From: an uncultured Planctomycetales bacterium
GTDB lineage: Bacteria > Planctomycetota > Phycisphaerae > UBA1845 > JAFGLZ01
Reading direction: 5' to 3'
Length of the DNA stretch: 64,000 nucleotides
NCBI GenBank assembly: GCA_964596165.1
Contig: CAZQTW010000011.1
Span: 26,556-90,555, forward strand
The translations under genes and the position numbers were made by a program. The notes below the pieces were generated by a model that saw only the letters and a program-made list of their open reading frames with translations, was not told where the DNA came from and searched no databases. Positions 1,493-37,951 of the stretch are shown in pieces. Numbering within the stretch: the stretch's first letter is position 1; every line of letters begins with the position of its first letter.

Positions 1493-1954
1493 TTACCTTC
1501 GTGATCCCTCATCGGATAAGGGTACTTCCTGGCGGGCGAAAATGCCTTCGGCCACCGCCTTCACCAAACCCGACTGGCGGATCTCAGCCTTCACCACGAA
1601 CAGCGAAGGTGACTCGCCCACGTGCCAGCCCCGCACGGTAGCGGCTTCGCCCACAACCACCGGGTGTCGAAACTGCACGGAAAGCTTCGTGGTGACCGCA
1701 TGGTGGCCGCGGGCAAACAGACAATGGATCATCGCCGCATCCAGCAGCAAGGCGATGATGCCGCCGTGTAGCCGATCCGGAAAACCCTGGTATCTCTCTT
1801 CACAGGAAAACGAGGCCGTCACGCTGCCGTCATCTTGCCGCACGAACCTCAATCCCAGGCCTCCCCGTTTCGGGTCACCGCAGGCGACGCACGCCGGATG
1901 ACAAGACTCGCCGAGCCCAACATCGTTTTCCGTAACCTCACTCGGTGTGTTCAC
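1493..1954 (-). CDS. PaaI/hotdog-fold thioesterase
   Basis: N-terminal CHPACVACG followed by LGLRF...FPDRLHGGIIALLLDAAM, typical of the PaaI-type thioesterase family. Confidence 0.75.
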   Translation of the reverse strand: MNTPSEVTENDVGLGESCHPACVACGDPKRGGLGLRFVRQDDGSVTASFSCEERYQGFPDRLHGGIIALLLDAAMIHCLFARGHHAVTTKLSVQFRHPVVVGEAATVRGWHVGESPSLFVVKAEIRQSGLVKAVAEGIFARQEVPLSDEGSRR

Positions 1955-2053: not shown

Positions 2054-2392
2054 TCAGTGATCGCAGACGTTGGCACCGGTCTGGAGTGTCCCGTCGAGAT
2101 ACGCCTTCACAAGGGTCTCCGGGGCCTCCGACGGGGCGCCCACCAACACCTGGATGCCTCGCTCGGCAAACAAATCCTGGGCCCGGGAACCCATGCCTCC
2201 GGCAATGATGACGTTCGCTTCGCGATCGTGCAGCCACCGGGGCAGGAGCCCCGGTTGGTGCTCGGGGGCGTCGACCGTCTCCTGTTTGACGATCGCCTTG
2301 GTCTTCGGATCGACGTCGATCAAGGCAAAATGCTCACAATGACCAAAGTGCGGACACAGTCTGCCGCCGGCAACCGGAATGGCAATACGCAT
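2054..2392 (-). CDS. NifB/NifX-family (dinitrogenase FeMo-cofactor-binding domain) small protein
   Basis: MRIAIPVAGGRLCPHFGHCEHFALIDVD...VIIAGGMGSRAQDLFAERGIQVLVG. Start chosen at the internal ATG, which is preceded by GGAGAG. The ORF track extends to 2440. Confidence 0.8.
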   Translation of the reverse strand: MRIAIPVAGGRLCPHFGHCEHFALIDVDPKTKAIVKQETVDAPEHQPGLLPRWLHDREANVIIAGGMGSRAQDLFAERGIQVLVGAPSEAPETLVKAYLDGTLQTGANVCDH

Positions 2393-2498
2393 TGCATTCT
2401 CTCCATTTTCTGCTGAACCATTTCCACAGAACGAACGCACTCGCTACTCATGTCTCCACCCCATGGACCGCGATCCAATCGCGGGTCGAGACATCCGT

Positions 2499-3800
2499 TT
2501 ACGACCATCGGTCTCTCTCACGAAATCCGTTCTTGTCCAGCCCAAGAATCGGTCCGATGACCTGCTGGAACGTACTGGCGGTCGTGGTTTCGGCGTAGTG
2601 ATGGGCGTAGGGCCTGCCCTCATCGCAGGCCAGGGCGATCTTGGGATCGATGGGGATACGCCCCAAAAACGGTACGTCCATCTCCTTGGCCATCCGTTCC
2701 CCGCCGCCGCTCTTGAAAATGTCCGTCACCTCGCCGCACTGGGGACACGCAAAACCGCTCATGTTCTCCACCACGCCGAGCACCGGCATGCGCACCTGCC
2801 GGCAGAACGTCACACACCGGCGGACATCGGACAACGCCACCTCTTGCGGCGTGGTGACGATCACGGCCCCATCGGCATCGGGAATGAGCTGACAGACCGA
2901 CAACGGTTCGTCACCCGTGCCCGGCGGCGAGTCGATGACCAGAAAATCCAGTTCACCCCATTCAACGTCCTTTATAAACTGCTTGATGACCCCCATCTTG
3001 AGCGGACCCCGCCAGATGACCGCGTCGCTCCGTCCCGACAGCAGCAGACCGATGGACACGACCTTCAGATCGCCGATCTCGAAGGGGACGAGCGTCTGGT
3101 TCTCCACCTCCAATCGCTTGCCCTCCAACCCCAGCATCCTCGGGATGCTCGGGCCGTGGATGTCCACGTCCAGAAGCCCTACCCGTTTGCCGGACAGAGA
3201 GAGTGAAACGGCCAGATTCACCGCGACGGTGCTCTTGCCCACTCCCCCCTTGCCGGAGAGCACAAGAACTTTGTGTTTGATCTGACAGAGCCGCCGTTGA
3301 AGCGCTTGGCGATCCTCGAACTCCTGGGTCGATTCGCCTTCACGGGCCGTCTTGGCGTCACAGCTTTCATCGGAACAACTTCCGCACCCCTGATCTCGCC
3401 GGCCGTCCGCCTTGGACCGCTCCTTCATCCGCTTCAGTGAATCCTCGACCGCCGCCCTGAGCGTGTTGGCCGCCAGCAGCGCGCAGTGCCTGGATTCTTC
3501 CGTCAGCCCCCCCAGGGCATCGATGATGTCCTGCTGCCGAATCTGAGCCGCCTCCATCAGCGACTTCCCGACGGCCAACTCGGTCGCCATGCTGCCCGAG
3601 GCGATGCTCGGACCGCATCCGTCCGTTTCGAAAGTCGCCTGCACGATGCGCCCGTCGTCGTTCTTGATCCAGATCTCCATGGTGTCGCCGCAGGGGCCCG
3701 TAATCCGCGCGTGTCCTGATGCGCCACTCAGTGCCCCACGGTTTCGGGGATGATCGAATCGCTCAATCGCCCCTTGCCCATAGTCGTTTTCGCCGCTCAT
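2499..3800 (-). CDS. IscU/NifU-like scaffold domain fused to an Mrp/NBP35 (ApbC-type) P-loop ATPase
   Basis: N-terminus: HPRNRGAL...GPCGDTMEIWIK...FETDGCGPSIASGSMATEL...SRHCALLAANTL (IscU signature Cys residues). C-terminus: VLVLSGKGGVGKSTVAVNLA...CPQCGE (Mrp family). Start chosen at the ATG preceded by AGGAGCAAGGAA. Confidence 0.85.
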   Translation of the reverse strand: MSGENDYGQGAIERFDHPRNRGALSGASGHARITGPCGDTMEIWIKNDDGRIVQATFETDGCGPSIASGSMATELAVGKSLMEAAQIRQQDIIDALGGLTEESRHCALLAANTLRAAVEDSLKRMKERSKADGRRDQGCGSCSDESCDAKTAREGESTQEFEDRQALQRRLCQIKHKVLVLSGKGGVGKSTVAVNLAVSLSLSGKRVGLLDVDIHGPSIPRMLGLEGKRLEVENQTLVPFEIGDLKVVSIGLLLSGRSDAVIWRGPLKMGVIKQFIKDVEWGELDFLVIDSPPGTGDEPLSVCQLIPDADGAVIVTTPQEVALSDVRRCVTFCRQVRMPVLGVVENMSGFACPQCGEVTDIFKSGGGERMAKEMDVPFLGRIPIDPKIALACDEGRPYAHHYAETTTASTFQQVIGPILGLDKNGFRERDRWS

Positions 3801-3826
3801 CGTCGTTCCTTGCTCCTGATTGCCAA

Positions 3827-4723
3827 TCATGCACCCGGTGCCTCGCCGAGCCGCCTTGAGACATCTCGCCAAATGTCCGCTATCTCGCGCGCCGCTGTGC
3901 TGTCGCGGCACTCCACCACAGCCTTACCCTGGATCTGCGCCTGGGTTACCGCCCGGTCGTAGTGAATCCGCCCAACCGGCTGAGCGCCGTGCTCCGCGGC
4001 ACAGTCTTCGATCTGATCCGCCATGGACGGGTTCAGGTCATACTTGTTCACGCACACCAGCGCCGGTATCCTAAAGTGTTTCGCCAGGCCCAGCACGCGC
4101 TCCAGATCGTGCCGACCCGAAAGCGTCGGCTCCGTCACGACCAAGACGCCCGAGGCCCCCGTGATCGACGCGATGACCGGACAGCCGATGCCGGGCGGGC
4201 CGTCCACGATGATCAGGTCGAGCCCTCGTTCGCCGGCAATACGCTGGGCCTCGCGCCGGACCGTGCTGACCAGCTTCCCGGAGTTCTCGGCGGCGATGCC
4301 GAGCCGGGCGTGGACCATCGGACCGTTCGCGGTCTCCGACACAAACCATTCACCGGTGACTCTCTCGACGAAGTCAATGGCATTCACCGGGCAGAACCGC
4401 GCGCATACGCCGCAACCCTCACACGCAATGGGATCGATTCGGAAGGTCCACGCCCCATTCGTGCTCTCCTTCCGGACGGCCTCAAATCGGCAATGCGCCA
4501 GGCACCCGCCGCAGGCGAGGCAGTCCTCCTGGCGTATCACGGCCTCCTTGCCGCTGCGAAACACCTCTCGTCGGACGATCGCAGGGTCCAACACCAGATG
4601 GAGGTCGGCGGCGTCGACGTCGCAATCGGCCAAGACCGATTTCCCGGCCAAGACGGCGAACGAAGCCACCACGCTCGTCTTTCCGGTACCGCCCTTGCCG
4701 CTGATGACCACGAGTTCCTTCAT
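3827..4723 (-). CDS. MinD/CooC-type P-loop ATPase with an inserted 2x[4Fe-4S] ferredoxin domain
   Basis: MKELVVISGKGGTGKTS deviant Walker A, then CLACGGCLAHC and CEGCGVCARFCP cluster motifs inserted before the rest of the ATPase fold. Confidence 0.85.
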   Translation of the reverse strand: MKELVVISGKGGTGKTSVVASFAVLAGKSVLADCDVDAADLHLVLDPAIVRREVFRSGKEAVIRQEDCLACGGCLAHCRFEAVRKESTNGAWTFRIDPIACEGCGVCARFCPVNAIDFVERVTGEWFVSETANGPMVHARLGIAAENSGKLVSTVRREAQRIAGERGLDLIIVDGPPGIGCPVIASITGASGVLVVTEPTLSGRHDLERVLGLAKHFRIPALVCVNKYDLNPSMADQIEDCAAEHGAQPVGRIHYDRAVTQAQIQGKAVVECRDSTAAREIADIWRDVSRRLGEAPGA

Positions 4724-4772
4724 GCTTGCTCTCGTGCCCCGCCGTACGGGCGGGCCTCTGGAATCCCGCACC

Positions 4773-5712
4773 TTACTCCGTCGACCTGTAGAACGTAGTG
4801 CCGTTCAAAACCTTCGCGTCCACACACCGACTTTCGAGAAGAGGACCCATGACCTTCATGATCTCGTTGGGATGGACACCGAGTCCGTTGGCCAAATCCG
4901 GAAGCGAACACGGCCGGCGCCTCAGCAGGGCCAACAACCCATCGCTGGTGGCGCGAGTGGATGGATGATCCTCCGCCCCGTGGTAGCCTCCAATGACCTC
5001 GGTCTCAACGGGGAATCGCCTCGCGATACGCTCGAGCATCTCCCTGGAGGCCGGCATGGCATAAGGTTCGGTCGGCGGACGGTTCACCGTGTTCAGTTGC
5101 ACGCGATCGGGCAGAATCCGTTCCACCGCCTGCACCATCTCGTTGACTTCGGAGTCGATCGTTGTGACCCCGCTCAGGATGAACACCTCCAGCCAGATCG
5201 GTTTGGCGAACTCCCGTCGAAACTCCACGAGCCCGTCCACCATCTCCGCGAATCGTATTCGCGGATGCGGCCGGTTCACGTATTGAAATGTCCGGTCGGT
5301 GCCCGCGTCCAAGGACGGAATCACCAGATCCGCCTGCGAGAGGCCCTTTCGGACCTGACGATCCCACAGGAGTGAGCCGTTGGTCAGGACGGCCACCGGT
5401 ATCGTGCTGATCTTCTTGACCGCCGAAATCAATTCGCCCAATCGCCCGTGGAGCGTCGGCTCGCCCGAACCCGAGAGCGTGATGTAGTCGGGTAGCGGCC
5501 TGACGTTCAACTTGCCGGCAACTTCATTCACCACGCGTTCCAGGGGGACGTACTCTGCCCGCTTGACCGTCTTATTGGTGGTTCGCCCGAGTTGGCAGTA
5601 GATGCAGTCGTAGGTGCAGGTCTTGAACTCGACCAGGTCGACACCCAGGGACCTCCCCAGGCGACGGGACGCCACCGGACCGAACACGTATTGGAATCGC
5701 TGTTGACTCACT
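4773..5712 (-). CDS. Radical SAM protein with a C-terminal winged-helix-like tail
   Basis: GPVASRRLGRSLGVDLVEFKTCTYDCIYCQLG (CX3CX2C). The GTG start at 5712 lies 3 nt from the stop of the upstream gene. The ORF track's upstream extension overlaps that gene and is rejected. Confidence 0.8.
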
Positions 5713-5715
5713 CTC

Positions 5716-6606
5716 TCAACACCCGAGCCGCGCTGATCGCGCCGCGTCCAACTCCTCTTGAACCGACTGTCCCAGTCTCCGAAACGCCGTACGCAGTTCC
5801 GGTAAGGCCTCAACGGCCGCCTTCCCACGCGAGTACGCCTCCGCGATCCGCCGATCGTCGGGGATCTCCATGAGAATGCGAATGCCTTCCTCGGCACAGT
5901 ATGCGTGGGTCCGGCCGTCGCCGGCATCCGCTCGGTTGATCACCACGCCGAACGGGAGCTCCAGCTTCCGAACGGTCTCGACCGCCAGCTTCAGATCGTG
6001 CAGACCAAACGAGGTGGGTTCCGTCACGAGAATCACATAGTCGGCGCCTCGGACCGACGCGATCACCGGGCACGAGGTCCCGGGGGGCGCGTCGATGAGC
6101 GTGAGTCCCTCGTCCGAAACGTATCGCTTGATCGCCCGGATCAGCGGTGGAGATTGAGCCTCGCCTACCCGGAGGCGACCCTCGACGAACTCGACGTCCC
6201 GCGACCGCCCGATGCTCAGGTGGCCGACGTCGCGGCGACCCTCCGCAATCGCCGAAACAGGACAGACCTTGACGCAACCCCCGCATCCGTGACAGAGTTC
6301 CGGAAAAACCAATGCCTTGGTCTTCAGCGAAGCAATCGCGTTGTATTGGCAGATCTCCGCGCACCTGCCGCAGGCCGTGCAGCGATCCTCATCGACAACC
6401 GGTACGGGAACGCTGACCGGCAGCGTCCCGGTAATTGTGGGCTTCAGAAAGAGGTGGCAGTTCGGCTCCTCCACATCACAGTCGATCAGACGCACCAGGC
6501 CCGGCGCCGAGAGCGCCATACTGACCGCAACGGTGGTCTTCCCGGTGCCACCTTTGCCGCTGGCAACCGCGACGACGATTCGTTTGTTGTCGCATCCCGC
6601 GTTCAT
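5716..6606 (-). CDS. MinD/CooC-type P-loop ATPase with an inserted 2x[4Fe-4S] ferredoxin domain (paralog of 3827-4723)
   Basis: IVVAVASGKGGTGKTT, CTACGRCAEICQ and CHGCGGCVKVCP. Same architecture as the downstream paralog. Confidence 0.85.
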   Translation of the reverse strand: MNAGCDNKRIVVAVASGKGGTGKTTVAVSMALSAPGLVRLIDCDVEEPNCHLFLKPTITGTLPVSVPVPVVDEDRCTACGRCAEICQYNAIASLKTKALVFPELCHGCGGCVKVCPVSAIAEGRRDVGHLSIGRSRDVEFVEGRLRVGEAQSPPLIRAIKRYVSDEGLTLIDAPPGTSCPVIASVRGADYVILVTEPTSFGLHDLKLAVETVRKLELPFGVVINRADAGDGRTHAYCAEEGIRILMEIPDDRRIAEAYSRGKAAVEALPELRTAFRRLGQSVQEELDAARSARLGC

Positions 6607-6678
6607 TCGACCATCTCTGCAAAACCAATGGGGCGGTGGTGGTCTCCAACCACAACCCCTGGCCCTTCAGACCCCTTC

Positions 6679-7191
6679 CTAGCGTGACGACTCGTTCGCG
6701 CGGACATCCGGCGATCCATGCCGTCCGCGTCCCTGACCGCCCCGGCCCCGACCGACCGGTTGATCGTGAGGAACGACATCCTGCGCATTCCGATGCAGAA
6801 ACTGCGGCGTATCGCTCTTTTCGGGCGATACCAGCAGCGGCAAGGCAAAGAGGCCCGTACAGATCAGTACAAAGACCACCGCGACGACGATTCTCACGGC
6901 GCGCGATGCAATCAGATGCGTAAGGGTTGCGGTGATCCAACTCCAGTGAAGCACGATGTGTACCGCCAGCAGGGCCAGCAACGTGAGCGAGGCGTACAGA
7001 TGCACCGTCCCCCACTGATGCCTGTCCAGTCCGAAGAGGTACAATTCGATGTTCGCCCCGTACTTGAGCACCCGCTCGCGGCCCGGTAGGAGCACCCACT
7101 TCATCAGGAACCCCAGACCCGCAATCAGGGCCATGTCGATGAACATCAAGGCATCAATCACGAAGTTAATCTTGGCTTTGTTCTTGAGCAT
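6679..7191 (-). CDS. DUF4405-like integral membrane protein
   Basis: INFVIDALMFIDMALIAGLGFLMKWVL...RHQWGTVHLYASLTLLALLAVHIVLHWSW. About four hydrophobic helices with conserved His/Trp. GGAGAGG lies upstream of the ATG. Confidence 0.7.
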   Translation of the reverse strand: MLKNKAKINFVIDALMFIDMALIAGLGFLMKWVLLPGRERVLKYGANIELYLFGLDRHQWGTVHLYASLTLLALLAVHIVLHWSWITATLTHLIASRAVRIVVAVVFVLICTGLFALPLLVSPEKSDTPQFLHRNAQDVVPHDQPVGRGRGGQGRGRHGSPDVRANESSR

Positions 7192-7215
7192 CGGCCTCTC
7201 CGCTACCGGCCCGTC

Positions 7216-7437
7216 TCACTTCGGACATTTCTTGAGGACCATGAACCAGTCCAGCACCCGGGTGTCTGCCGCCGGTTTCTCAACGCGATCCTTGGCCGTC
7301 CCGCAGGAGCCGGCCGGCGGAACGATCACCTCGTCGCCCGATTGCCGCTGGGCCACCGTGGCATCGTCGATGAAGTCCTCGACATCCGTGCTCGGTCTTG
7401 CGTGTGCCTCAGTATCCGTCGCCACGATCGTCCCCAA
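7216..7437 (-). CDS. Small hypothetical protein (69-73 aa) with a C-terminal CG...KKCPK
   Basis: ORF fits the 24-48 nt gaps of the operon and has high third-position GC. I recognise no family. TTG or GTG start. Confidence 0.4.
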   Translation of the reverse strand: MGTIVATDTEAHARPSTDVEDFIDDATVAQRQSGDEVIVPPAGSCGTAKDRVEKPAADTRVLDWFMVLKKCPK

Positions 7438-7485
7438 TCCCTGCCCGTCGAGTCCGTGGGCCCGCTATGCGGCCGCCCGACGCCA

Positions 7486-7815
7486 CTACACCCAGTGCCC
7501 CTCGACATCGGGCGAATCCGACGGGCTCAGCTCGCCCCGCTTGAAGCGCTCGACGACCTCGCCCACGGTCCCTTCGACGCCGGTAATAACCTGGATCCCC
7601 GCGGCCCGAAGCGTGGCGAACGCCTTCGGGCCACAGTGCCCGGTCAGCAGGACCTGCGCTCCCAGGCGAGAGACGTTCTGGGCCGCCTGAATCCCCGCCC
7701 CCTGTGCGGCATTCAAGTTCTGCGTGTTGTCCTCGACCTGAACGCTGCCCGTTTCCGTGTCCACGAGGATGAATTTCGCCGCTCGACCAAACCGCGGATC
7801 GATCGGCGAACCCAA
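7486..7815 (-). CDS. NifB/NifX-family small protein with no canonical start codon for its conserved N-terminus
   Basis: SPIDPRFGRAAKFILVDTETG...VLLTGHCGPKAFATLRAAGIQVITG. The in-frame upstream codons read KVAGTSSGDGLG, a typical family N-terminus, but contain no ATG/GTG/TTG before TTG 7815. Confidence 0.7.
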   Translation of the reverse strand: MGSPIDPRFGRAAKFILVDTETGSVQVEDNTQNLNAAQGAGIQAAQNVSRLGAQVLLTGHCGPKAFATLRAAGIQVITGVEGTVGEVVERFKRGELSPSDSPDVEGHWV

Positions 7816-7955
7816 CCCATCCCCGCTTGATGTGCCCGCAACCTTCCCTTTGGCGCCCTGCCAACGGCTACTTGGTGTTGAGCTGCTCGGGCCCGGCGCT
7901 CGCCGGGCCCGCCCTCACGAACACCGAGATCTTTCGGCCGCACCCGCCCCGCTCG

Positions 7956-8315
7956 TTAGGACACCTTCTCCTCGGCCGCCAACTCGTCGATTCGTTTTCT
8001 CAGGTCGTCCAATTGGGCCTGAAGAACGTCAGCCTGCCTCGTCAGGAATTCCTTCTCGGCTGCCGGATTTGGAACCGGCTGAACTCCCGACATCGGCGGC
8101 GCAGCCCCCCACCCGAAACGAGCCCAGCCCGGCAATCCGGTCGCCCAGAACATGTTTCGCCGGCCTCGTCGGCCGCCACCGCCAAAACCGCGACCCCGAC
8201 CGAAAACCGGCACCGGATTCATGAAACCCGGAACACCGTATCCGGCACAGTAGCCCGCGGCACGGCCCGTCATTGGTCCCATTCCCATCGGTCCTGTTCC
8301 ATCTCCACCTGGCAT
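7956..8315 (-). CDS. DUF5320-like protein
   Basis: MPGGDGTGPMGMGPMTGRAAGYCAG N-terminus, a Gly/Arg-rich middle and a coiled-coil C-terminus (LQAQLDDLRKRIDELAAEE). Confidence 0.75.
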   Translation of the reverse strand: MPGGDGTGPMGMGPMTGRAAGYCAGYGVPGFMNPVPVFGRGRGFGGGGRRGRRNMFWATGLPGWARFGWGAAPPMSGVQPVPNPAAEKEFLTRQADVLQAQLDDLRKRIDELAAEEKVS

Positions 8316-8339
8316 GATGTATCTCCTTTCAACTGGAAG

Positions 8340-8999
8340 TTATCCTCGGGTCATCGTGGTACCGCAGTTCGGGCAAATCAGTTGAACGCAAGGCTGCCCC
8401 CTCTCATGGGCTTGCCTGTGCCCGCAACTCGGACAAACGCACTCTCCCGGCGAGCTGAGGTCCGGGTTCTGCATGCGCCATCTGCCCCTCCGGCCACGCC
8501 CCGTTCCTCTTCCTCGCCCGCCTCCGCCTCGTCCGCCAGTCCCGTTTCCCAACGGCATCGTTGATCCCGGCGAGGAAGCCGTGCCGCCCCAGCCTTCTCC
8601 CGGCCGGTTCGTTGCGGCATACGGCCCTCGCTCGCCCCTGAACTGCCTCTGCCCACCGCAACACCCCGGCATCTGCAACGACGGGGTTGACAGATTGCCG
8701 GTTAAGAACGCCCTCAGCACATCACCCACACTCCCGGCAATGTATGGGATGAGCCGGATTCCGGTGGCCCGCACCATGGCGGCAACCGGTACCGAGATGG
8801 CCCCACACACAAGGACCTGAACACCCATCCCCTGAATGGCGGCCACCTTTTGCAGGGGCTGCGCGTCGGAAAGTGCCTCCTGTCGGCTTGCGACCGCTTG
8901 GCCCTCTCGAACGTCAAACACCAGAACCTGCTGAGCAGCGTCGAAAACCGGAGAGATCCTTCCTTCCCACACAGTGAAGGCTACTCTTGTAGGGCTCAT
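8340..8999 (-). CDS. NifB/NifX-like domain fused to a Gly/Arg-rich linker and a C-terminal CxxC...CxxC zinc-ribbon
   Basis: VAFTVWEGRISPVFDAAQQVLVFDV...VLVCGAISVPVAAMVRATGIRLIPY, then GGRGGGGRGRGTGRGRRGR, then CVCPSCGHRQAHERGQPCVQLICPNCG. Start chosen at ATG 8999, which is preceded by GGAGG. Confidence 0.75.
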   Translation of the reverse strand: MSPTRVAFTVWEGRISPVFDAAQQVLVFDVREGQAVASRQEALSDAQPLQKVAAIQGMGVQVLVCGAISVPVAAMVRATGIRLIPYIAGSVGDVLRAFLTGNLSTPSLQMPGCCGGQRQFRGERGPYAATNRPGEGWGGTASSPGSTMPLGNGTGGRGGGGRGRGTGRGRRGRWRMQNPDLSSPGECVCPSCGHRQAHERGQPCVQLICPNCGTTMTRG

Positions 9000-9033
9000 T
9001 GCCAAAGACCTCCGAGGACTCATTTGTGAGAAC

Positions 9034-9049
9034 AGCACATGCCATGCCA
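9034..9049 (-). promoter_or_regulatory. Sigma-54 (-24/-12) promoter of the Fe-S/NifX-like operon
   Basis: The minus strand reads CTGGCATG-GCAT-GTGCT. The invariant GG and GC are at the canonical 12-nt register (consensus YTGGCACG-N4-TTGCW, two mismatches). It lies about 35 nt upstream of ATG 8999, and a bEBP gene is nearby. Confidence 0.6.
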
Positions 9050-9146
9050 GCAAGCAACTAAGACAACGGCGCGATCTTAACCTATTTCAAGAAAGTATTT
9101 TATGTCGATACTTGTTCGATCAGGGAACGTCGAGAAACAAAATTGG

Positions 9147-9194
9147 GTAGCACTACTGCAACCATTCGTCTGATCACAGTTGCATGAATGCTAC
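9147..9194. promoter_or_regulatory. Nested inverted repeat, candidate enhancer (UAS) for the bEBP
   Basis: The minus strand reads GTAGCA-ttca-TGCAAC-N16-GTTGCA-gtag-TGCTAC. It sits about 100-145 bp upstream of the -24 element, the usual UAS distance. Confidence 0.3.
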
Positions 9195-9690
9195 CGTCGA
9201 GTCGATCGAGTTGAAGAGAACAAAGCTCAGACACGAAAATGCCGCGCCCCTCGCCAGGGTCAGGTCTGTCAGCCCTCAATCCGAGGACCAAAAGCGGGGG
9301 CAATGGGACATTCGAGAACTGCGGTTAGGTTGCGGCGCGATGAGGGCCGGCATCCGCGTTCTGTTGAAGCGCGCCGGGCCGGAGGCTTGCGATCTCAAGA
9401 CCGTCCTCAGCGCCCGAAGGTTTGGCAGTCTCATTCGTCGTGACAACGCCCAGAGAATCGGCTTGATCCCACCGGAAATCGATCACCAGCGGATTCATCC
9501 CACAGCCAACATGGTGCCGGCAAGGGCGAAGGGGGCTCTGCTCACGCCGAAAGCCCGCCGGCAAGGATAAGGCACCGTCCGACGAACCCGACACGTCGGA
9601 TTGTCCCTCAACGGGGGTTTCCAAACCGTGTTCGCCGACGCTATGATCTTCCCGGACACGTGAACCTGTTAGGTCTGGGGGCTTATCAAC

Positions 9691-10485
9691 ATGCATGACT
9701 TTGAAGAAAGCGACGTTTCGCGGGCGATTCTGGAGGCGTACCACGCCAAGTTTGCCGAAGCCCTTCGGAGCGATGTGGTCATTGTCGGTGCCGGTCCGTC
9801 GGGTCTGGTGGCCGCCTGGCGGTTGGCGCGGGCGAGTCGTCGCGTCGTCGTTCTTGAAAAGCGGCTGAGCCCCGGCGGGGGCGTTTGGGGCGGCAGCCTT
9901 GGGATGAACGAGGTCGTCGTTCAGAAGGAGGCACTCGACATCCTGAACGAGGCGGACGTAAGGCACCGGGCTCGCGGCTGCGTCTTCACGGCCGACGCAA
10001 TGGAACTGGCCTCGGCGTTGTGTCTGAAGGCCCTCCGCGCCGGGGCAATCCTCCTCAACCTCACGATGGCCGAAGACCTCTGCGTTCGCGGCGGGCGCGT
10101 TACCGGCGTCGTCGCAAACCGATCGATGCTCGGAGAGAATCTGCCCATCGACCCGATCGTTTTCACCGCCGAGGCCACGATCGATGCTACCGGACACGAG
10201 GCCGTTCTGGCCAACTGCCTGCAACGCCGCGGCCTCTTGAAGGACGCCCCCACCCGGCTTCCCGGCGAAGGCCCAATGGACGCCCGGGCCGGTGAACAGT
10301 TCGTGGTGGACCACGTCACCGAGCTTTATCCCGGCTTGTGGACAACCGGCATGAGCGTCTGCGCGTCGCTGGGCGGACCGAGAATGGGTCCGATCTTTGG
10401 GGGCATGCTGATGTCCGGGACCGTGGTCGCCGAACAGGTGCTGAAGGGCATCGCCACGGGCGAACCGAGGCGCCGTCGTGACTGA
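9691..10485 (+). CDS. thi4: Thi4-family thiazole synthase, catalytic His type
   Basis: VVIVGAGPSGLVAA FAD fold, plus IDATGHEAVL with His where the eukaryotic suicide enzymes carry Cys. This suggests the sulfide-dependent archaeal/anaerobe type. Confidence 0.85.
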   Translation: MHDFEESDVSRAILEAYHAKFAEALRSDVVIVGAGPSGLVAAWRLARASRRVVVLEKRLSPGGGVWGGSLGMNEVVVQKEALDILNEADVRHRARGCVFTADAMELASALCLKALRAGAILLNLTMAEDLCVRGGRVTGVVANRSMLGENLPIDPIVFTAEATIDATGHEAVLANCLQRRGLLKDAPTRLPGEGPMDARAGEQFVVDHVTELYPGLWTTGMSVCASLGGPRMGPIFGGMLMSGTVVAEQVLKGIATGEPRRRRD

Positions 10486-10618
10486 GCCACAGTCGTCTGC
10501 CGTCGCCCGTTACCCGCTTTGTCTCGCGACACTCGGTTGCCTGGAACACACCGGCAAGACACTTCGATGTCATGGCCGCCGCTTGTCGCCGATTGCGGAT
10601 CGACGAGGGGACGACCGC

Positions 10619-10951
10619 CTACCTTCCGGAATCAGGTTCAGTCCCACGTCGTTCAAGCACGCGCCGGAGTGTGTCGGCGATGATCTCCACACGGCCGCGC
10701 CGAGCACGGCTCCAGGCCCGTGAAAGTTCAACCGGATCGAAATGCTCGCGGAGAAACCCTTCGATATCGAACACGCCGCCCCAACAACTCACAACACGTG
10801 GGCACGGCAGCGACTGACTCAGGCCCCGACAATAGCCGAATGTGACCGGGTTTCCAAGCTGGGGACACCGCGAGATGAGGTGGTGGTCGTAGCGAGCCTC
10901 CCGCCGATCCGGCTCATCCGATCGGCTCGGGTGTTCAGGTTGATCCGACAT
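10619..10951 (-). CDS. Small Cys-rich protein (C-X11-C-X8-C-X5-C) co-transcribed with the bEBP
   Basis: MSDQPEH...RCPQLGNPVTFGYCRGLSQSLPCPRVVSCWGGVFDIEGFL. ATG 10951 overlaps the bEBP stop by 17 nt. I cannot name the family. Confidence 0.55.
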   Translation of the reverse strand: MSDQPEHPSRSDEPDRREARYDHHLISRCPQLGNPVTFGYCRGLSQSLPCPRVVSCWGGVFDIEGFLREHFDPVELSRAWSRARRGRVEIIADTLRRVLERRGTEPDSGR

Positions 10952-12416
10952 TCGATCCTCCCTTCCGGGCCGTTCGAGTCTGCCGCGCCCCGCTCTCCTG
11001 CGAATCCTCATGCCTACCGCGTCTTCGTGCGGCCCTGCCGTCCCTTTCCGGCAGCACAAGTCCGAACGATTTCATCTTTCGGAACAACGTGGTCTTGTGC
11101 ATGCCGAGTTCCCGGGCGGTCGCCAGTCGGTTGTAGTTGTTCCTCTTGAGCGATTCCAGGATCGCCTGGGCCTCCACCGCGCGAAGCGCACCGGCAACGT
11201 CACGGGCCGACGGACGTGAAGCTGCTCGAAGCGCCAGGTCCTCCGGCAGGTGACGAGGCTCGATCAGTCTGTCGGGACCAAGCACAAAGGCATGCTCGAT
11301 GATATTCTCCAACTCGCGGATGTTGCCGGGGTACTCGTGGGCCAGCAAGATTGCCATGGCCTCTTGGCTGATCCCCTCCACGGACTTGCCCTGCAACCGG
11401 TTGAACCGAGCGATGAAGTGTTCGGCCAGAAGGGGGATGTCCTCCTTGCGCCTTCGCAGGGGCGGCAACTCCAGCCTCACCACGTTGATGCGATAGAACA
11501 AGTCCTGGCGGAAGGTCCCCTCTCTAACCAGGCAAGTCAGCTCCTTGTTGGTCGCGGTAATGACCCGAACGTCCGCCTTGACCGACTCCGTGCCTCCGAG
11601 GGGCTCGTAAACCTTGTCCTGGAGTACGCGAAGAAGCCGAGTCTGCAACGCCGGACTGACATCGCCGATCTCATCGAGGAAAAGAGTCCCTCCCTCAGCC
11701 AGAGCAAATCGGCCGGGTTTGTCCTTCTGAGCCCCGGTAAATGCACCCGCCTTGTATCCGAATAGCTCGGACTCCAACAACGTGTCCGGTAGAGCTCCGC
11801 AGTTGACAACGACGAACGGACCCTCGCAACGAGCGCTCAGGTTGTGGATCGCCCGGGCCAGGAGTTCCTTGCCGGTTCCCGTCTCACCTTGAATCAGAAT
11901 CGTGCTGTCACTGGCGGCCACGTGAGGCAAGACGCCGAGGATCTTCCTCATGGAAGCGCTGCGGCTGACCATGTCCCCCAATTCGAATCGGCCTTCCAGC
12001 TCCTTGCGAAGTTCCTCCACAACGCTCAAGTCACGGAACGTCTCCGCCCCTCCGATGACGTTACCCGCCCCGTCCCGAAGAAGGGCCGTCGAGACGCTGA
12101 TGGGAATACGGCGTCCTTCGGCATCGATGATGAAGGCGGATTGGTTGATCACCGGCGCGCCGGTGTTCATGGTGCGCCGCAGGGCACAATCGACCTCGCA
12201 CATGTTCGCCCGAAAGACCTCCGAGCAACGGCGACCGATCGCCTCATGGCGCGGAATCCCCGTGATTTCCTCCGCAGCGCGGTTGAATGAGGTGATCCGC
12301 CACTCGTGATCGACCGTGAAGACACCGTCGGAGATGCTCTCCAGGATGATCTCGGTGGCCGCGGGTGTCGCCGGCAGAGCATCGGGCCTTCGCTCTCTTC
12401 TCCTTGGCTTACTCAT
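10935..12416 (-). CDS. Sigma-54-dependent transcriptional activator (PAS - AAA+ - Fis HTH), no receiver domain
   Basis: PAS domain with [18 protein letters not shown] (C-X8-C-X3-C). AAA+ domain with [21 protein letters not shown] and ESELFGY. C-terminal [21 protein letters not shown]. Confidence 0.9.
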
Positions 12417-15018: not shown

Positions 15019-15057
15019 GATTGATCCTCGTCGTTCCGTTCGATACGCGCCGTGGCC

Positions 15058-15134
15058 TCAGTGCGGCGGCGGACACCATTCGTTTTCACCGGGGAGGCAT
15101 TCCGGCTTCGGCGGATACGGCCCCGGGCCGATCA
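15058..15134 (-). pseudogene. Orphan copy of the Cys/Pro C-terminal tail, with no intact ORF context
   Basis: The minus strand encodes (L)IGPGPYPPKPECLPGENEWCPPPH-stop, matching the last 25 codons of 12676-15018. An in-frame TGA lies 9 codons upstream of the Ile and there is no start codon. Confidence 0.5.
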
Positions 15135-15205
15135 GGGTGTCGACAGGCTCGGTTCGGGTTCACGCGTCACCTCCCACACAACCGCCGGAGACGAGTCGGG
15201 CGACG

Positions 15206-35125: not shown

Positions 35126-35386
35126 TCAACAACCGGCTTTCGGACCGGTTCAAAGTTCTCAACTAACTGACGAAAGACGGCTTGAAACTCGCGGATGGGA
35201 CGGTGAAATAGGTGATAGACGGACCGGCGCATTTGGCGTAGGGAGCCGAGGTTCCAGAGACACGACAAGGCTCGGGAAGGCGGACTTTCGGTCACCCCCG
35301 TGTCGTGAGGCATGCGTCCGCATTGCAGGTATCGCGCCGGACGCGTTTCGTGCCCGGCCGCAAACACACCTCGAAGGAAGCAACAC

Positions 35387-37414: not shown

Positions 37415-37417
37415 ATC

Positions 37418-37951
37418 ATGAACACAACGCCATCGCAATCGTCATCGTCGCCGCGAGACTACATGAATCCGTACCTGGCGGGCGTCCTCCTGGGCCTGAC
37501 GCTGCTGACGTCATTCCTCTTGCTCGGCGCCGGGCTGGGGGCATCCGCCGGCATCGCGCGGGCAGGCGCCTATGTCGAAGGATGCTTTCTAAGCGCCCAC
37601 ACGCTGACCAGCGAGTACTTCGGGGCGTGGGGCGCCAACCCACTCCGCTACTACCTGGTCTTCATGCTGGGCGGCACGTTCCTCGGCGGGCTCTTCTCCG
37701 CGTTGCTCGGAAATCGGATCCGGCTCGGGTTGGAGCGGGGTCGTTCGGCGCCGAGCCGGCTTCGGGCCGTTTTCGCATTGGTCGGGGGAGTTGTCGTGGG
37801 ATTCGCCGGCCGTCTGGCCCAGGGCTGCACGTCGGGACAGGCCCTCAGCGGCGGCGCCATGCTTCTAACGGGCAGCCTGATCTTCATGATGTGTGTCTTC
37901 GGCGGAGGCTATGCCGCGGCCTACTTCTTCCGGAGGCAGTGGCATGATTAG
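37418..37951 (+). CDS. YeeE/YedE family sulfur-compound transporter subunit
   Basis: Multi-TM protein with GRLAQGCTSGQALSGG, the family's conserved Cys loop. Confidence 0.85.
   Translation: MNTTPSQSSSSPRDYMNPYLAGVLLGLTLLTSFLLLGAGLGASAGIARAGAYVEGCFLSAHTLTSEYFGAWGANPLRYYLVFMLGGTFLGGLFSALLGNRIRLGLERGRSAPSRLRAVFALVGGVVVGFAGRLAQGCTSGQALSGGAMLLTGSLIFMMCVFGGGYAAAYFFRRQWHD

What the first reader, a model, noticed from the sequence alone, without database searches (positions are those of the whole stretch)
2054..12416. Sigma-54/PAS-bEBP-associated operon of NifX-like, MinD-ferredoxin, IscU::Mrp and radical-SAM genes with no visible client enzyme
Ten co-directional minus-strand genes (8999 down to 2054, gaps of 3-140 nt) make up the operon. 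They encode three stand-alone NifB/NifX-type cofactor-binding domains, one fused to a Gly/Arg linker and a CxxC...CxxC ribbon. They also encode two paralogous MinD/CooC-type ATPases, each split by a 2x[4Fe-4S] ferredoxin insert, and an IscU-scaffold::Mrp/NBP35 fusion. The rest are a radical SAM enzyme with a winged-helix-like tail, DUF5320, DUF4405 and a 73-aa orphan. No nitrogenase, hydrogenase, CODH or other obvious recipient is present in the window. The first gene is preceded by CTGGCATG-N4-GTGCT, with GG/GC in the exact sigma-54 register, and by a nested palindrome 100-145 bp further upstream. The next unit on the same strand is a receiver-less bEBP whose PAS domain carries C-X8-C-X3-C. 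The stop of that bEBP overlaps the start of a C-X11-C-X8-C-X5-C mini-protein. Together this reads as a redox- or metal-sensing switch driving a dedicated metallocluster assembly or carrier module of unknown function.
Basis: partly seen in the sequence, partly recalled or inferred. Interest (0 to 1): 0.72.

Follow-up and report, generated by a model that had tools for sequence, protein, structure and literature searches.

The report
Orange-protein (ORP) operon with OrpR switch
This is a version of the "orange protein" (ORP) gene cluster of strict anaerobes, with its redox-sensing sigma-54 activator OrpR. The system is known from Desulfovibrio, its cellular role is still unsettled, and here it carries extra iron-sulfur genes in what is probably a planctomycete.

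Summary
All domain calls, the sigma-54 motif, the upstream palindrome and the Cys motifs are present at the stated coordinates.

The unit is not an unknown module. It is the ORP system described in Desulfovibrio vulgaris Hildenborough.
- g3 is an orange-protein homologue (PDB 2WFB, E 4e-22).
- g6 and g8 match the published description of Orp3/Orp4: paralogous MinD-type ATPases, each with two [4Fe-4S] motifs.
- g9 plus g10 together pass NCBI's MrpORP model (555 bits, cut-off 450).
- The activator carries OrpR's C-X8-C-X3-C triad and acidic residue.

In 84 related loci from many phyla, the order activator-g1-(g2)-g3-MinD-(radical SAM)-MinD-Mrp-NifX recurs. A sigma-54 motif sits 10-45 nt before g1 in 30 of 43 loci. 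Two GCA-N4-TGC sites sit about 113 and 146 nt upstream in 19 of 30.

No nitrogenase, hydrogenase or CODH recurs nearby.

Differences from Desulfovibrio:
- a single operon;
- MrpORP split and fused to IscU;
- an IssA-like cationic-tail protein;
- a radical SAM enzyme;
- a DUF4405 protein, a family shown elsewhere to bind heme b;
- a Cys4 mini-protein.

The "73-aa orphan" is a peroxiredoxin remnant.

Verdict: a new variant of a known kind, of moderate interest.

The parts
10935..12416 (-). OrpR-type sigma-54 activator: PAS with C64, E66, C73 and C77; AAA+ domain with a GAFTGA loop; Fis-type HTH
   Evidence: Pfam assigns PAS, Sigma54_activat and HTH_8. The motif C-x-[DE]-x6-C-x3-C is present in all 120 closest homologues and in all 41 activators next to ORP genes in the fetched loci. 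Its spacing matches DvH OrpR C52/D-E54/C61/C65 (PMC8359166).
10619..10951 (-). 110-aa Cys4 mini-protein (C-X11-C-X8-C-X5-C) with a helical C-terminal half. A GGAGGA ribosome-binding site lies upstream, and the gene overlaps the activator's end by 17 nt.
   Evidence: Sequence read directly. The family has 275 clusters at E<=0.001 with four invariant Cys. It has no Pfam or NCBIfam model. A homologue sits between the two MinD-Fer4 genes in L024 8549-8818.
9691..10485 (+). thi4, a sulfide-dependent thiazole synthase. It is a neighbour, not part of the operon, but it recurs beside ORP clusters.
   Evidence: TIGR00292 scores 228.7 bits against a cut-off of 148.3. thi4 also lies beside ORP clusters in L001-3, L005 and L086.
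9301..9567 (+). Remnant of a RACo (corrinoid activase) gene, left by a deletion relative to the sister lineage
   Evidence: It is 69% identical to residues 496-584 of the 615-aa RACo of L002. A RACo_C_ter Pfam hit is recorded on the called ORF in L090/L093.
9180..9193 (.). Distal activator-binding site (UAS). It reads TAGCATTCATGCAA on the operon strand.
   Evidence: Exact TNGCA-N4-TGCNA match. It is centred about 145 nt upstream of the promoter centre, the position conserved in related loci.
9148..9161 (.). Proximal activator-binding site (UAS). It reads TTGCAGTAGTGCTA on the operon strand, 32 nt from the distal site.
   Evidence: Two such sites spaced 31-34 nt occur in 19 of 30 loci, against 0.26 expected in shuffles.
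9050..9145 (.). AT-rich spacer between the UAS and the promoter, probably a bending region
   Evidence: GC is 39.6% against 62.2% for the window. The best IHF consensus match has 2 mismatches. IHF is required at the DvH orp promoters (PMC3897727).
9034..9049 (-). Sigma-54 promoter element TGGCATG-N4-GTGCT (GG at -24, GC at -12), ending 34 nt before the g1 ATG
   Evidence: It is the only match in 64 kb. The best sigma-54 motif lies 10-45 nt before g1 in 30 of 43 loci, against 4 in shuffles.
8340..8999 (-). g1: NifX-like domain, Gly/Arg-rich cationic tail and a CxxC...CxxC zinc ribbon (IssA/IssX-like)
   Evidence: PF02579 scores 38.9 bits. The tail has 24 Gly and 12 Arg in 81 residues, and the C-terminal part (residues 105-219, tail plus ribbon) has a calculated pI of 10.5. 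This is the first operon gene in most loci.
7956..8315 (-). g2: DUF5320, with a Gly/Arg/aromatic-rich N-terminal half and a C-terminal coiled coil
   Evidence: PF17253 scores 100.9 bits. Sequence.
7486..7815 (-). g3: orange protein (Orp8 homologue)
   Evidence: The best PDB hit is 2WFB, D. gigas ORP, at E 4.2e-22. Identity is 48%.
7216..7437 (-). g4: C-terminal remnant of a peroxiredoxin gene, probably a pseudogene
   Evidence: It matches positions 178-222 of 224 in NCBIfam PRK13189. Full-length peroxiredoxins occur in the clusters L017 8884-9576 and L010 9264-9971. The sister strain L085 has peroxiredoxin coding sequence upstream of the point (about 7337) where it diverges from the window, and identical DNA below that point.
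6679..7191 (-). g5: half-size DUF4405 membrane protein with a Gly/Arg tail
   Evidence: PF14358 scores 45.7 bits. DUF4405 and FezC bind heme b (PMC11334425). DUF4405 also occurs in the clusters L086 and L087.
5716..6606 (-). g6: MinD-type ATPase with a 2x[4Fe-4S] insert (Orp3/Orp4 type)
   Evidence: CbiA, ParA and Fer4 hits. The sequence shows Walker A GKGGTGKT and two CxxCxxCxxxC motifs.
4773..5687 (-). g7: radical SAM enzyme (CX3CX2C; annotated 'wyosine synthetase' (radical SAM superfamily) by JGI for close homologues) with a winged-helix tail
   Evidence: PF04055. It passes no specific NCBIfam model. The fold search returns only generic radical SAM folds, TM about 0.5. It lies inside ORP clusters in about 8 of the 80 scanned loci and in L086-L088.
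3827..4723 (-). g8: second MinD-type ATPase with a 2x[4Fe-4S] insert
   Evidence: CbiA, ParA and Fer4 hits.
2499..3830 (-). g9: an IscU scaffold domain fused to the Mrp/NBP35 part of MrpORP
   Evidence: NifU_N scores 98.3 bits and ParA 343.5 bits. The MrpORP model scores 405.7 bits over model positions 2-253 of 365. The sequence shows GKGGVGKS and CPQC.
2054..2392 (-). g10: the Di-Nase (NifX-like) domain of MrpORP, encoded as a separate gene
   Evidence: It matches MrpORP model positions 265-365 at 137.7 bits. g9 plus g10 concatenated score 555.5 bits, above the 450 cut-off. The motifs CPHFGHCE, PEHQPGLLP and terminal CDH match those named in PMC6345978.
1493..1954 (-). 4HBT thioesterase, possibly an 11th operon gene
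   Evidence: It lies 100 nt after g10 on the same strand. A 4HBT gene also lies inside the ORP-like cluster L087.

Best explanation
The region is an extended ORP (orange protein) gene cluster with its cognate OrpR-type activator.

**Regulation.** This part rests on homology to a characterised system and on conserved DNA anatomy.
- The activator holds a redox-sensitive [4Fe-4S] cluster on PAS residues C64, C73 and C77, with E66 as a possible fourth ligand.
- It binds two tandem GCA-N4-TGC palindromes at 9148-9161 and 9180-9193.
- At low redox potential its AAA+ domain contacts sigma-54 RNA polymerase at 9034-9049, across an AT-rich bendable spacer, and opens the promoter.
- When the potential rises the cluster is damaged and transcription stops.

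**Products.**
- Two MinD-type ATPases, each with two [4Fe-4S] clusters (Orp3/Orp4 type).
- The orange protein (Orp8 type), which in Desulfovibrio holds a non-covalent Mo/Cu-sulfide cluster.
- A split MrpORP. Its Mrp half binds a bridging [4Fe-4S] cluster at CPQC and passes it to the MinD-ferredoxins. Its Di-Nase half (g10) carries the CxHFGHCE and CDH motifs.

**Inferred steps.**
- The fused IscU domain builds clusters next to the Mrp carrier.
- g1 and DUF5320 use their Gly/Arg tails to hold anionic metal-sulfide species, as IssA does.
- The radical SAM enzyme, the DUF4405 protein and the Cys4 mini-protein are accessory parts of unknown role.

**Overall reading.** This is an anaerobiosis-only module that builds, holds and hands over Fe-S or metal-sulfide clusters within its own complex. 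It does not serve a neighbouring enzyme.
For: **Identity of the parts**
- g3 against 2WFB orange protein: E 4e-22.
- g9 plus g10 pass the NCBIfam MrpORP equivalog model at 555.5 bits, cut-off 450, over its full length.
- g6 and g8 are MinD + 2xFer4.
- The activator has the OrpR domain order and Cys triad, and the triad is invariant in 161 relatives.

**Conserved gene order**
- The order activator-g1-(g2)-g3-MinD-(radical SAM)-MinD-Mrp-NifX recurs in loci from Planctomycetota, Hydrogenedentota, Acidobacteriota, Verrucomicrobiota, Desulfobacterota, Nitrospirota and Bacillota.

**Regulatory DNA**
- Sigma-54 motif: its position is conserved in 30 of 43 loci, against 4 in shuffles. In 31 loci the best match reaches 10 of 12 consensus positions, against 0.9 in shuffles.
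- UAS pair: conserved in 19 of 30 loci against 0.26 in shuffles, with modal spacing of 33 nt.
- Both motifs are essentially unique within the 64 kb window.
- No sigma-70-like site precedes g1.

**Published mechanism**
- PMC8359166: OrpR [4Fe-4S] cluster, redox switch, ChIP-seq.
- PMC3897727: IHF and site positions.
- PMC6345978: MrpORP transfers clusters to Orp3/Orp4.

**Accessory genes recur together elsewhere**
- L086 has DUF4405, a radical SAM::NifU_N fusion and Thi4 beside MinD-Fer4, NifX and MrpORP.
- L087 and L088 are similar.
Against: - No D. vulgaris Orp or OrpR sequence could be fetched. Orthology to Orp3, Orp4, Orp5, Orp7 and OrpR therefore rests on published motifs, on the MrpORP model and on the D. 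gigas structure, not on pairwise alignment.
- The DvH binding site as printed (GGGCGYRTTTTGCGCCC) has GCA-N3-TGC spacing, not N4, and does not occur in the window.
- The layout differs from DvH: one operon here, and the activator lies 1.9 kb away behind thi4.
- No good IHF consensus was found.
- No rpoN gene is in the window.
- The cellular role of the ORP complex is unsettled even in DvH, where a link to cell division was proposed.
- The functions assigned to g1, g2, g5, g7 and the mini-protein are inference only.
Confidence: 0.82

Rival explanations
1. The cluster is chiefly an iron-sulfur storage system. g1 and DUF5320 would nucleate and wrap an anionic thioferrate-like Fe-S polymer, as IssA does in Pyrococcus. 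IscU::Mrp and the MinD-ferredoxins would load and unload it. The orange protein would be a small carrier.
For: - g1 has an IPR003731-type domain plus a cationic Gly-rich tail; the C-terminal part has a calculated pI of 10.5. IssA and the uncharacterised 'IssX' clade are defined by this combination (PMC5524996).
- Gly/Arg tracts also occur in g2 and g5.
- Ferritin lies inside the sister cluster L002.
- Peroxiredoxin, rubrerythrin, FUR and catalase lie in related clusters.
- DUF4405 is related to the ferrosome cytochrome FezC (PMC11334425).
Against: - The g1 tail has few aromatic residues (4 of 81), whereas the IssA tail has 14 of 70.
- Placement of g1 in the IssA clade was not tested.
- g1 lacks the long tail in the closest relative, where it is 126 aa in L002.
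- No nanoparticle or thioferrate data exist for any ORP protein.
- The DvH complex was pulled down as a discrete five-protein complex (PMC6345978).
Confidence: 0.2
2. The cluster matures a complex metallocofactor for an enzyme encoded elsewhere. It would work as a NifB-like pathway split into separate proteins: the radical SAM enzyme, NifX-like carriers and an IscU-Mrp scaffold.
For: - Three NifX-like proteins, a radical SAM enzyme and a scaffold-carrier fusion sit in one operon.
- The radical SAM family is fused to NifU_N in P0342.
- NifB structures appear among the fold matches.
Against: - The radical SAM gene is present in only about 10% of ORP clusters.
- It matches NifB no better than viperin, PflA or MoaA, with TM about 0.5 for all, and it hits no NifB model.
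- No candidate client recurs in 81 loci or in the window.
Confidence: 0.1
3. The complex acts in cell division or in positioning at the cell pole, through its MinD-like ATPases. This was proposed for D. vulgaris. The metal clusters would serve as redox inputs.
For: - Morphological defects of the DvH orpR mutant and polar localisation of MrpORP are reported (PMC8359166, PMC6345978).
- g6 and g8 hit MinD models weakly.
Against: - g6 and g8 score far below the MinD cut-offs: 62 and 53 bits against a cut-off of 201.75.
- No MinE, MinC or fts genes recur in the neighbourhoods.
- The accessory genes concern Fe-S and redox handling.
Confidence: 0.1
4. The activator at 10935-12416 does not control this operon. 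It would regulate the mini-protein or a distant target, and the sigma-54-like motif before g1 would be a chance match.
For: - thi4 and a pseudogene remnant separate the activator from the operon.
- A single TGGCAY-N6-TGCW match appears in 35 of 100 shuffles of the window.
Against: - The motif's position before g1 is conserved in 30 of 43 loci, and the paired upstream sites in 19 of 30.
- In most loci the activator directly precedes g1.
- The separation in the window is explained by a deletion and rearrangement relative to the sister lineage.
Confidence: 0.04

Closest known systems
ORP (orange protein) system of Desulfovibrio vulgaris Hildenborough: orp3-orp4-orp5, orpR, orp7-orp8-orp9 (DVU2103-DVU2109)
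   Same: - An orange-protein homologue.
- Two paralogous MinD-type ATPases, each with two [4Fe-4S] motifs.
- Both domains of MrpORP.
- A sigma-54 promoter with upstream palindromic activator sites about 100-150 nt away.
- A PAS-AAA+-HTH activator with the C-X8-C-X3-C triad.
- No linked client enzyme.
   Different: - One operon of about ten genes instead of two divergent three-gene operons.
- The activator lies 1.9 kb upstream on the same strand, behind thi4.
- MrpORP is split into two genes, and its Mrp half carries an N-terminal IscU domain.
- Added genes: an IssA-like g1, DUF5320, DUF4405 and a radical SAM enzyme.
- Added elements: a Cys4 mini-protein and a peroxiredoxin remnant.
- The UAS half-sites are spaced N4, against N3 in the DvH motif as printed.
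- The activator loop reads GAFTGA rather than GAFTDA.
- The host is probably Planctomycetota, whereas OrpR was reported as restricted to Deltaproteobacteria.
MrpORP (Orp9 / Dde_3202), NCBIfam NF041136
   Same: - The Mrp part scores 405.7 bits and the Di-Nase part 137.7 bits against this model.
- The deviant Walker A motif GKGGVGKS and the CXXC motif are present.
- The Di-Nase motifs CxHFGHCE, PxHxPGxxP and the terminal CDH are present.
   Different: - The two domains are on separate polypeptides. They are fused in 14 of 18 comparable loci.
- An IscU domain is added at the N-terminus.
IssA of Pyrococcus furiosus (thioferrate storage protein) and the uncharacterised 'IssX' clade
   Same: g1 has an N-terminal IPR003731/PF02579 domain followed by a disordered Gly-rich, Arg-rich cationic tail.
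   Different: - The g1 tail is poor in aromatic residues.
- It ends in a four-Cys zinc ribbon.
- Clade membership was not tested.
- There is no evidence of polymer binding.
NifB / NifX / NafY of nitrogenase cofactor synthesis
   Same: - The same cofactor-binding domain family (PF02579).
- Radical SAM chemistry is encoded in the same operon.
   Different: - There are no nif genes.
- The radical SAM enzyme is not NifB-like beyond the common fold.
- The NifX-like domains are closest to the orange protein and to the MrpORP Di-Nase domain.

Membership tests
ORP gene cluster (Fievet et al. 2011; PMC6345978, PMC8359166) | Encodes an orange-protein (Orp8) homologue | tested here: met
   g3 against PDB 2WFB (D. 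gigas ORP): E 4.2e-22 and 48% identity.
ORP gene cluster (Fievet et al. 2011; PMC6345978, PMC8359166) | Two paralogous MinD-like ATPases, each with two [4Fe-4S] ferredoxin motifs (Orp3, Orp4) | tested here: met
   g6 and g8 each have CbiA/ParA plus two Fer4 motifs. No pairwise test against the DvH proteins was possible.
ORP gene cluster (Fievet et al. 2011; PMC6345978, PMC8359166) | MrpORP: Mrp/NBP35 P-loop domain plus Di-Nase domain | tested here: met
   g9 plus g10 concatenated score 555.5 bits on NF041136 (cut-off 450) over model positions 2-365 of 365.
ORP gene cluster (Fievet et al. 2011; PMC6345978, PMC8359166) | MrpORP is a single two-domain polypeptide | tested here: not met
   A stop codon and a 106-nt gap separate g9 from g10, and the same is seen in four other assemblies. 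g9 alone scores 405.7 bits, below the 450 cut-off.
ORP gene cluster (Fievet et al. 2011; PMC6345978, PMC8359166) | Two divergent operons flanking orpR | tested here: not met
   The window has a single co-directional operon, and the activator is upstream on the same strand. Collinear layouts dominate in the 84 loci, including a Desulfovibrionaceae genome, L019.
ORP gene cluster (Fievet et al. 2011; PMC6345978, PMC8359166) | Small [2Fe-2S] protein Orp5 (Dde_3197 homologue) and Orp7 | not tested
   No sequences could be obtained. Candidates in the window are g1, g2 or the Cys4 mini-protein.
ORP gene cluster (Fievet et al. 2011; PMC6345978, PMC8359166) | Sigma-54-dependent transcription | tested here: inconclusive
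   The motif is present and its position is conserved. Transcription itself cannot be tested here, and rpoN is not in the window.
ORP gene cluster (Fievet et al. 2011; PMC6345978, PMC8359166) | Products form one physical complex | not testable with these tools
   This needs a pull-down experiment.
OrpR family of bEBPs (PMC8359166) | PAS - AAA+ - HTH order, with no receiver domain | tested here: met
   Pfam PAS_4 at 25-131, Sigma54_activat at 150-315 and HTH_8 at 411-450.
OrpR family of bEBPs (PMC8359166) | Three conserved PAS cysteines spaced C-X8-C-X3-C, with D/E two residues after the first | tested here: met
   C64, E66, C73 and C77 are present. The motif occurs in all 120 closest homologues (120/120) and all 41 locus activators (41/41).
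OrpR family of bEBPs (PMC8359166) | Binds the palindrome GGGCGYRTTTTGCGCCC upstream of the orp promoters | tested here: not met
   The DvH motif is absent from the g1 upstream region, which was read directly. The window instead has two T[TCA]GCA-N4-TGC[AG]A sites at the equivalent distance.
OrpR family of bEBPs (PMC8359166) | Binds a [4Fe-4S] cluster and is switched off by a rise in redox potential | not testable with these tools
   This needs anaerobic purification with UV-vis and EPR, and reporter assays.
IssA / IssX (PMC5524996) | IPR003731 domain followed by a cationic, Gly-rich and aromatic-rich disordered tail | tested here: inconclusive
   The g1 tail has 24 Gly, 12 Arg and only 4 aromatic residues in 81. 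The whole C-terminal part (tail plus ribbon) has a calculated pI of 10.5.
IssA / IssX (PMC5524996) | Falls in the IssA clade; forms thioferrate nanoparticles | not tested
   No IssA sequence or phylogeny was available here.
NifB | Radical SAM domain specifically related to NifB | tested here: not met
   No NifB model appears among the NCBIfam hits. NifB structures rank 23-38 in the fold search, with the same TM of about 0.5 as unrelated radical SAM enzymes.
IscU/NifU_N scaffold | Three conserved Cys and the Asp of the cluster-assembly site | tested here: met
   NifU_N scores 98.3 bits. The sequence shows GPCGD, DGCGPSIAS and RHCALLA. It scores below the NCBIfam equivalog cut-offs, as expected for a fused domain.

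The most novel reading that the evidence does not exclude
The extended ORP clusters may encode a complete, self-contained, redox-gated pathway that makes and stores an inorganic metal-sulfide species. The extended set is the IscU::Mrp scaffold, NifX-like carriers with cationic tails, DUF5320, a radical SAM enzyme, a DUF4405 protein (a family shown to bind heme b) and a Cys4 protein. The stored species could be thioferrate-like Fe-S or Mo/Cu-S. If so, this would be a bacterial counterpart of archaeal IssA storage bodies, widespread in anaerobes of many phyla. The 'orange protein' would be its soluble carrier rather than a cell-division factor.
Probability: 0.15. Interest if true: 0.75.

Novelty: new variant of a known kind. 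Interest (0 to 1): 0.38.

Why it matters
The ORP system has been known since the orange protein was isolated. OrpR is described as the first Fe-S PAS sensor among sigma-54 activators. What the complex does is still unknown.

This locus and its 80-odd relatives show four things.
- The system and its regulator are not confined to Deltaproteobacteria, as was reported. They occur in Planctomycetota, Acidobacteriota, Hydrogenedentota, Verrucomicrobiota, Nitrospirota and Bacillota.
- The promoter plan is conserved across these phyla: two GCA-N4-TGC sites three helical turns apart, an AT-rich spacer and a sigma-54 element.
- The recurrent accessory genes all concern iron, sulfur and redox stress, and none concerns division. 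They are IscU, cationic-tail proteins, a radical SAM enzyme, DUF4405, peroxiredoxin, ferritin and Thi4.
- No client enzyme travels with the cluster.

These points give concrete hypotheses and a richer set of proteins for working out ORP function. They do not reveal a new kind of system.

Tried and rejected
**Sources that could not be obtained**
- The founding J Bacteriol 2011 paper (PMC3133258) is not held.
- D. vulgaris and D. alaskensis Orp sequences could not be fetched.

**Searches that found nothing**
- Rfam found no RNA family in the window, so no TPP riboswitch precedes thi4.
- g1 has no PDB sequence match.
- The IHF consensus search found nothing better than 2 mismatches.
- A literature search for newer ORP work found nothing beyond the 2019 and 2021 papers. 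A search for Dde_3197 or DVU2105 gave no sequence or domain information.

**Mini-protein**
- The word-index search found only 4 relatives.
- The AlphaFold model was too poor to use, with pLDDT 57, so no fold search was run.
- No member of its family hits Pfam.

**Radical SAM enzyme**
- The fold search against the PDB gave only generic matches: viperin, PflA, DesII, TYW1, MoaA and NifB, all with TM about 0.5.
- I therefore rejected any specific assignment, including JGI's 'wyosine synthetase' label and a NifB-like role.

**Rejected readings**
- The junction at the peroxiredoxin remnant is not an assembly artefact. Four independent assemblies share it.
- The third UAS-like match at 54611 is not a second regulated promoter. 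It is a single site inside a coding region, at about the chance expectation.

Full report
**1. What is in the sequence**

On the minus strand between 8999 and 2054 lie ten closely spaced ORFs.

| Gene | Coordinates | Content |
|---|---|---|
| g1 | 8340-8999 | PF02579 NifX-like domain, then a Gly/Arg tract and a CxxC...CxxC ribbon |
| g2 | 7956-8315 | DUF5320 |
| g3 | 7486-7815 | PF02579 |
| g4 | 7216-7437 | no Pfam family |
| g5 | 6679-7191 | DUF4405 |
| g6 | 5716-6606 | CbiA/ParA P-loop domain interrupted by two Fer4 motifs |
| g7 | 4773-5687 | Radical_SAM |
| g8 | 3827-4723 | CbiA/ParA P-loop domain interrupted by two Fer4 motifs |
| g9 | 2499-3830 | NifU_N plus Mrp-type ParA |
| g10 | 2054-2392 | PF02579 |

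The same gene boundaries were called independently on four JGI metagenome assemblies that carry exactly this layout. A plus-strand thi4 gene (9691-10485) follows. The next minus-strand genes are a 110-aa Cys4 protein (10619-10951) and a PAS-AAA+-HTH sigma-54 activator (10935-12416).

**2. It is the ORP system**

A literature search on the gene content led to the orange protein (ORP) system of Desulfovibrio vulgaris Hildenborough. That system has two sigma-54 operons, orp3-4-5 and orp7-8-9, flanking the activator gene orpR (DVU2106).

According to the papers:
- Orp3 and Orp4 are paralogous MinD-like proteins, each with two [4Fe-4S] motifs.
- Orp8 is the orange protein.
- Orp9 (MrpORP) is an Mrp/NBP35 domain fused to a 'Di-Nase' NifX-like domain. 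It transfers [4Fe-4S] clusters to Orp3 and Orp4 (PMC6345978).
- OrpR senses redox potential with a [4Fe-4S] cluster bound by PAS residues C52, C61 and C65. D/E54 is a possible fourth ligand. ChIP-seq found the two orp promoters as its only targets (PMC8359166).

Tests of the window against these features:
- **Orange protein.** The best solved-structure match of g3 is 2WFB, the D. gigas orange protein (E 4.2e-22, 48% identity).
- **MrpORP, Mrp half.** g9's Mrp half scores 405.7 bits on NCBI's MrpORP equivalog model NF041136, over model positions 2-253 of 365. It scores only 232 bits on ApbC.
- **MrpORP, Di-Nase half.** g10 covers model positions 265-365 (137.7 bits). g9 and g10 joined score 555.5 bits, above the 450-bit cut-off. 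g10 also carries the CxHFGHCE, proline-rich and terminal CDH motifs that the MrpORP paper names for this domain.
- **OrpR.** The activator has C64-X8-C73-X3-C77 with E66, the OrpR spacing. The motif C-x-[DE]-x6-C-x3-C is present in all 120 closest homologues and in all 41 activators next to ORP genes in the fetched loci.

**3. Conservation of the neighbourhood**

A scan of one genome per species with an orange-protein profile found relatives in more than 541 genomes. I searched the best 80 loci, plus four others, with the window proteins by tblastn.

- The order activator, g1, (g2), g3, MinD-Fer4, (radical SAM), MinD-Fer4, Mrp, NifX recurs in loci labelled Planctomycetota, Hydrogenedentota, Acidobacteriota, Verrucomicrobiota, Gemmatimonadota, Nitrospirota, Bacillota and many Desulfobacterota.
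- This contradicts the published remark that OrpR is restricted to Deltaproteobacteria.
- The closest relatives of the window's proteins are Planctomycetota or other PVC-group genomes assembled from metagenomes. The source is therefore probably a planctomycete; this is an inference.
- Mrp and the CDH-type NifX domain are fused in 14 of 18 comparable loci and split in 4, as in the window.
- An IscU-like domain is encoded in 34 of the loci. It is fused to Mrp in a single alignment in two of them, L014 and L017, and lies directly upstream of Mrp in L024.
- The radical SAM gene lies inside about eight of the scanned clusters.
- Independent look-ups of radical SAM homologues again landed in ORP-like clusters. 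These carried DUF4405, a metallo-beta-lactamase-fold protein, NifU_N, 4HBT and Thi4 (L086, L087, L088).
- One homologue (P0342) is a radical SAM::winged-helix::NifU_N fusion.

I clustered all other ORFs in and around the 81 clusters. The recurrent accessory families were:
- receiver domain, metallo-beta-lactamase fold, Zn_ribbon_8 and DUF134;
- CGGC, Pyr_redox_2 with rhodanese, ARMT1-like and methyltransferase;
- peroxiredoxin, C_GCAxxG_C_C and DUF364.

No nitrogenase, hydrogenase or CODH recurred. None was found among the 20 largest other ORFs of the window either.

**4. Regulatory DNA**

- TGGCATGGCATGTGCT at 9034-9049 is the only TGGCAY-N6-TGCW match in 64 kb. It ends 34 nt before the g1 ATG, which has a GGAGG ribosome-binding site.
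- Across 43 loci, the best match to TGGCACG-N4-TTGCW within 400 nt upstream of g1 falls 10-45 nt before the start codon in 30. In shuffles the mean is 4.0 and the maximum 10.
- In 31 loci the best match reaches 10 of 12 consensus positions, against 0.9 in shuffles.
- Upstream of these promoters, 19 of 30 loci have two sites of the form T[TCA]GCA-N4-TGC[AG]A. They are centred about 113 and 146 nt from the promoter centre and are mostly 31-34 nt apart. Shuffles give 0.26 loci.
- The spacer at 9050-9145 is 39.6% GC in a 62.2% GC window. No good IHF consensus is present.
- In DvH the activator sites lie at -131 and -88, with IHF sites in between (PMC3897727).
- The DvH site as printed, GGGCGYRTTTTGCGCCC, has similar half-sites but N3 spacing, and it is absent from the g1 upstream region.
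- No sigma-70-like site lies on the operon strand before g1. One lies at 9618-9647 (+), before thi4.

**5. The extra parts**

- **g1.** It has a cationic Gly/Arg tail, with 24 Gly and 12 Arg in 81 residues. The C-terminal part (tail plus ribbon) has a calculated pI of 10.5.
  - This is the architecture that defines the thioferrate-storage protein IssA and the uncharacterised 'IssX' clade (PMC5524996).
  - The tail is poor in aromatic residues, and I did not test clade membership.
- **g2 and g5.** Both also carry Gly/Arg tracts.
- **DUF4405.** Proteins of this family bind heme b and are related to the ferrosome protein FezC (PMC11334425).
- **g7.** It has the CX3CX2C motif and passes no specific NCBIfam model.
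  - Its AlphaFold model (pLDDT 77) shows a partial radical SAM barrel plus a helix-helix-helix-strand-strand tail.
  - Foldseek returns only generic radical SAM enzymes, with TM about 0.5.
- **Mini-protein.**
  - It belongs to a family of at least 275 sequence clusters of 80-110-aa proteins with four invariant Cys.
  - The family has no Pfam model.
  - One member lies between the two MinD-Fer4 genes in L024.
  - It may be the 'small iron-sulfur protein of the ORP operon', but I could not test this.

**6. Two gene remnants**

- **g4.** It matches only the last 45 or so residues of a peroxiredoxin.
  - Full-length peroxiredoxins occur inside ORP clusters L017, L010 and L013.
  - A sister strain (L085) has identical DNA below about 7337 and peroxiredoxin coding sequence above it.
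- **Segment 9301-9567 (+).** It is 69% identical to residues 496-584 of a 615-aa RACo protein. In the 88%-related lineage L002, that protein sits in a six-gene block between thi4 and g1.

The window lineage has therefore lost genes at two points. This explains both the 'orphan' and the odd position of thi4.

**7. Verdict**

The object is a member of an already described system whose regulator mechanism and one maturation step are published. It differs enough in layout and gene content to count as a new variant of a known kind.

The open question is what the ORP complex is for. The neighbourhood evidence here argues for Fe-S or metal-sulfide handling under reducing conditions, not for cell division or for service to a linked enzyme.

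Noticed in passing
window 7216-7437 (-); L085 1-370; L017 8884-9576; L010 9264-9971: The '73-aa orphan' is the C-terminal tail of a peroxiredoxin. A sister strain has peroxiredoxin coding sequence with identical DNA downstream of about 7337, and full-length peroxiredoxins sit inside other ORP clusters.
   Followed up: yes
window 9301-9567 (+): The 640-bp 'intergenic' region between g1 and thi4 holds a remnant of a RACo (corrinoid activase) gene. It is 69% identical to residues 496-584 of the full-length gene in L002, which implies a deletion of several kilobases in this lineage.
   Followed up: yes
window 9691-10485 (+); L005 8211-8963; L086 9469-10299; L002 12311-13105: The sulfide-dependent thiazole synthase gene thi4 lies next to ORP clusters in at least four separate lineages. 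The link is unexplained. Both need iron and sulfide, but this was not tested.
   Followed up: partly
window 10619-10951 (-); L024 8549-8818: The Cys4 mini-protein belongs to a family of at least 275 sequence clusters with the invariant pattern C-X11-C-X8-C-X5-C and no Pfam or NCBIfam model. One member lies between the two MinD-Fer4 genes of another ORP cluster.
   Followed up: partly
window 1493-1954 (-); L087 4979-5473: A 4HBT thioesterase gene follows g10 by 100 nt on the same strand. One also occurs inside another ORP-like cluster, so it may be an eleventh operon gene.
   Followed up: partly
window g1 8340-8999, g2 7956-8315, g5 6679-7191: Three products of the same operon carry Gly/Arg-rich tracts: GGRGGGGRGRGTGRGRRGR, GRGRGFGGGGRRGRR and GRGRGGQGRGRHG. 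This suggests a shared binding partner or a co-assembly signal.
   Followed up: no
L086 8001-9392 (P0342); P0320, P0366: Homologues of the radical SAM enzyme are fused to an IscU (NifU_N) domain in one lineage and to a methyltransferase domain in others.
   Followed up: partly
window 54611-54624: A single UAS-like match, TCGCAGAGTTGCGA, lies inside a B12-binding radical SAM gene (53860-55296, -). It is probably a chance match, since 0.9 matches are expected per window.
   Followed up: partly
window 12676-27719: Downstream lie several very large proteins. They are a 780-aa pentapeptide-repeat protein, a 1117-aa protein with no Pfam hit, a 1246-aa PQQ-propeller/methyltransferase/malectin protein and a 1414-aa protein with Laminin_G_3 and a hydrazine-synthase-alpha middle domain.
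   Followed up: no
window 35312-39167 (+): Two adjacent sulfur-handling genes lie here: a metallo-beta-lactamase with three rhodanese domains, and a Sulf_transp protein with a rhodanese domain.
   Followed up: no
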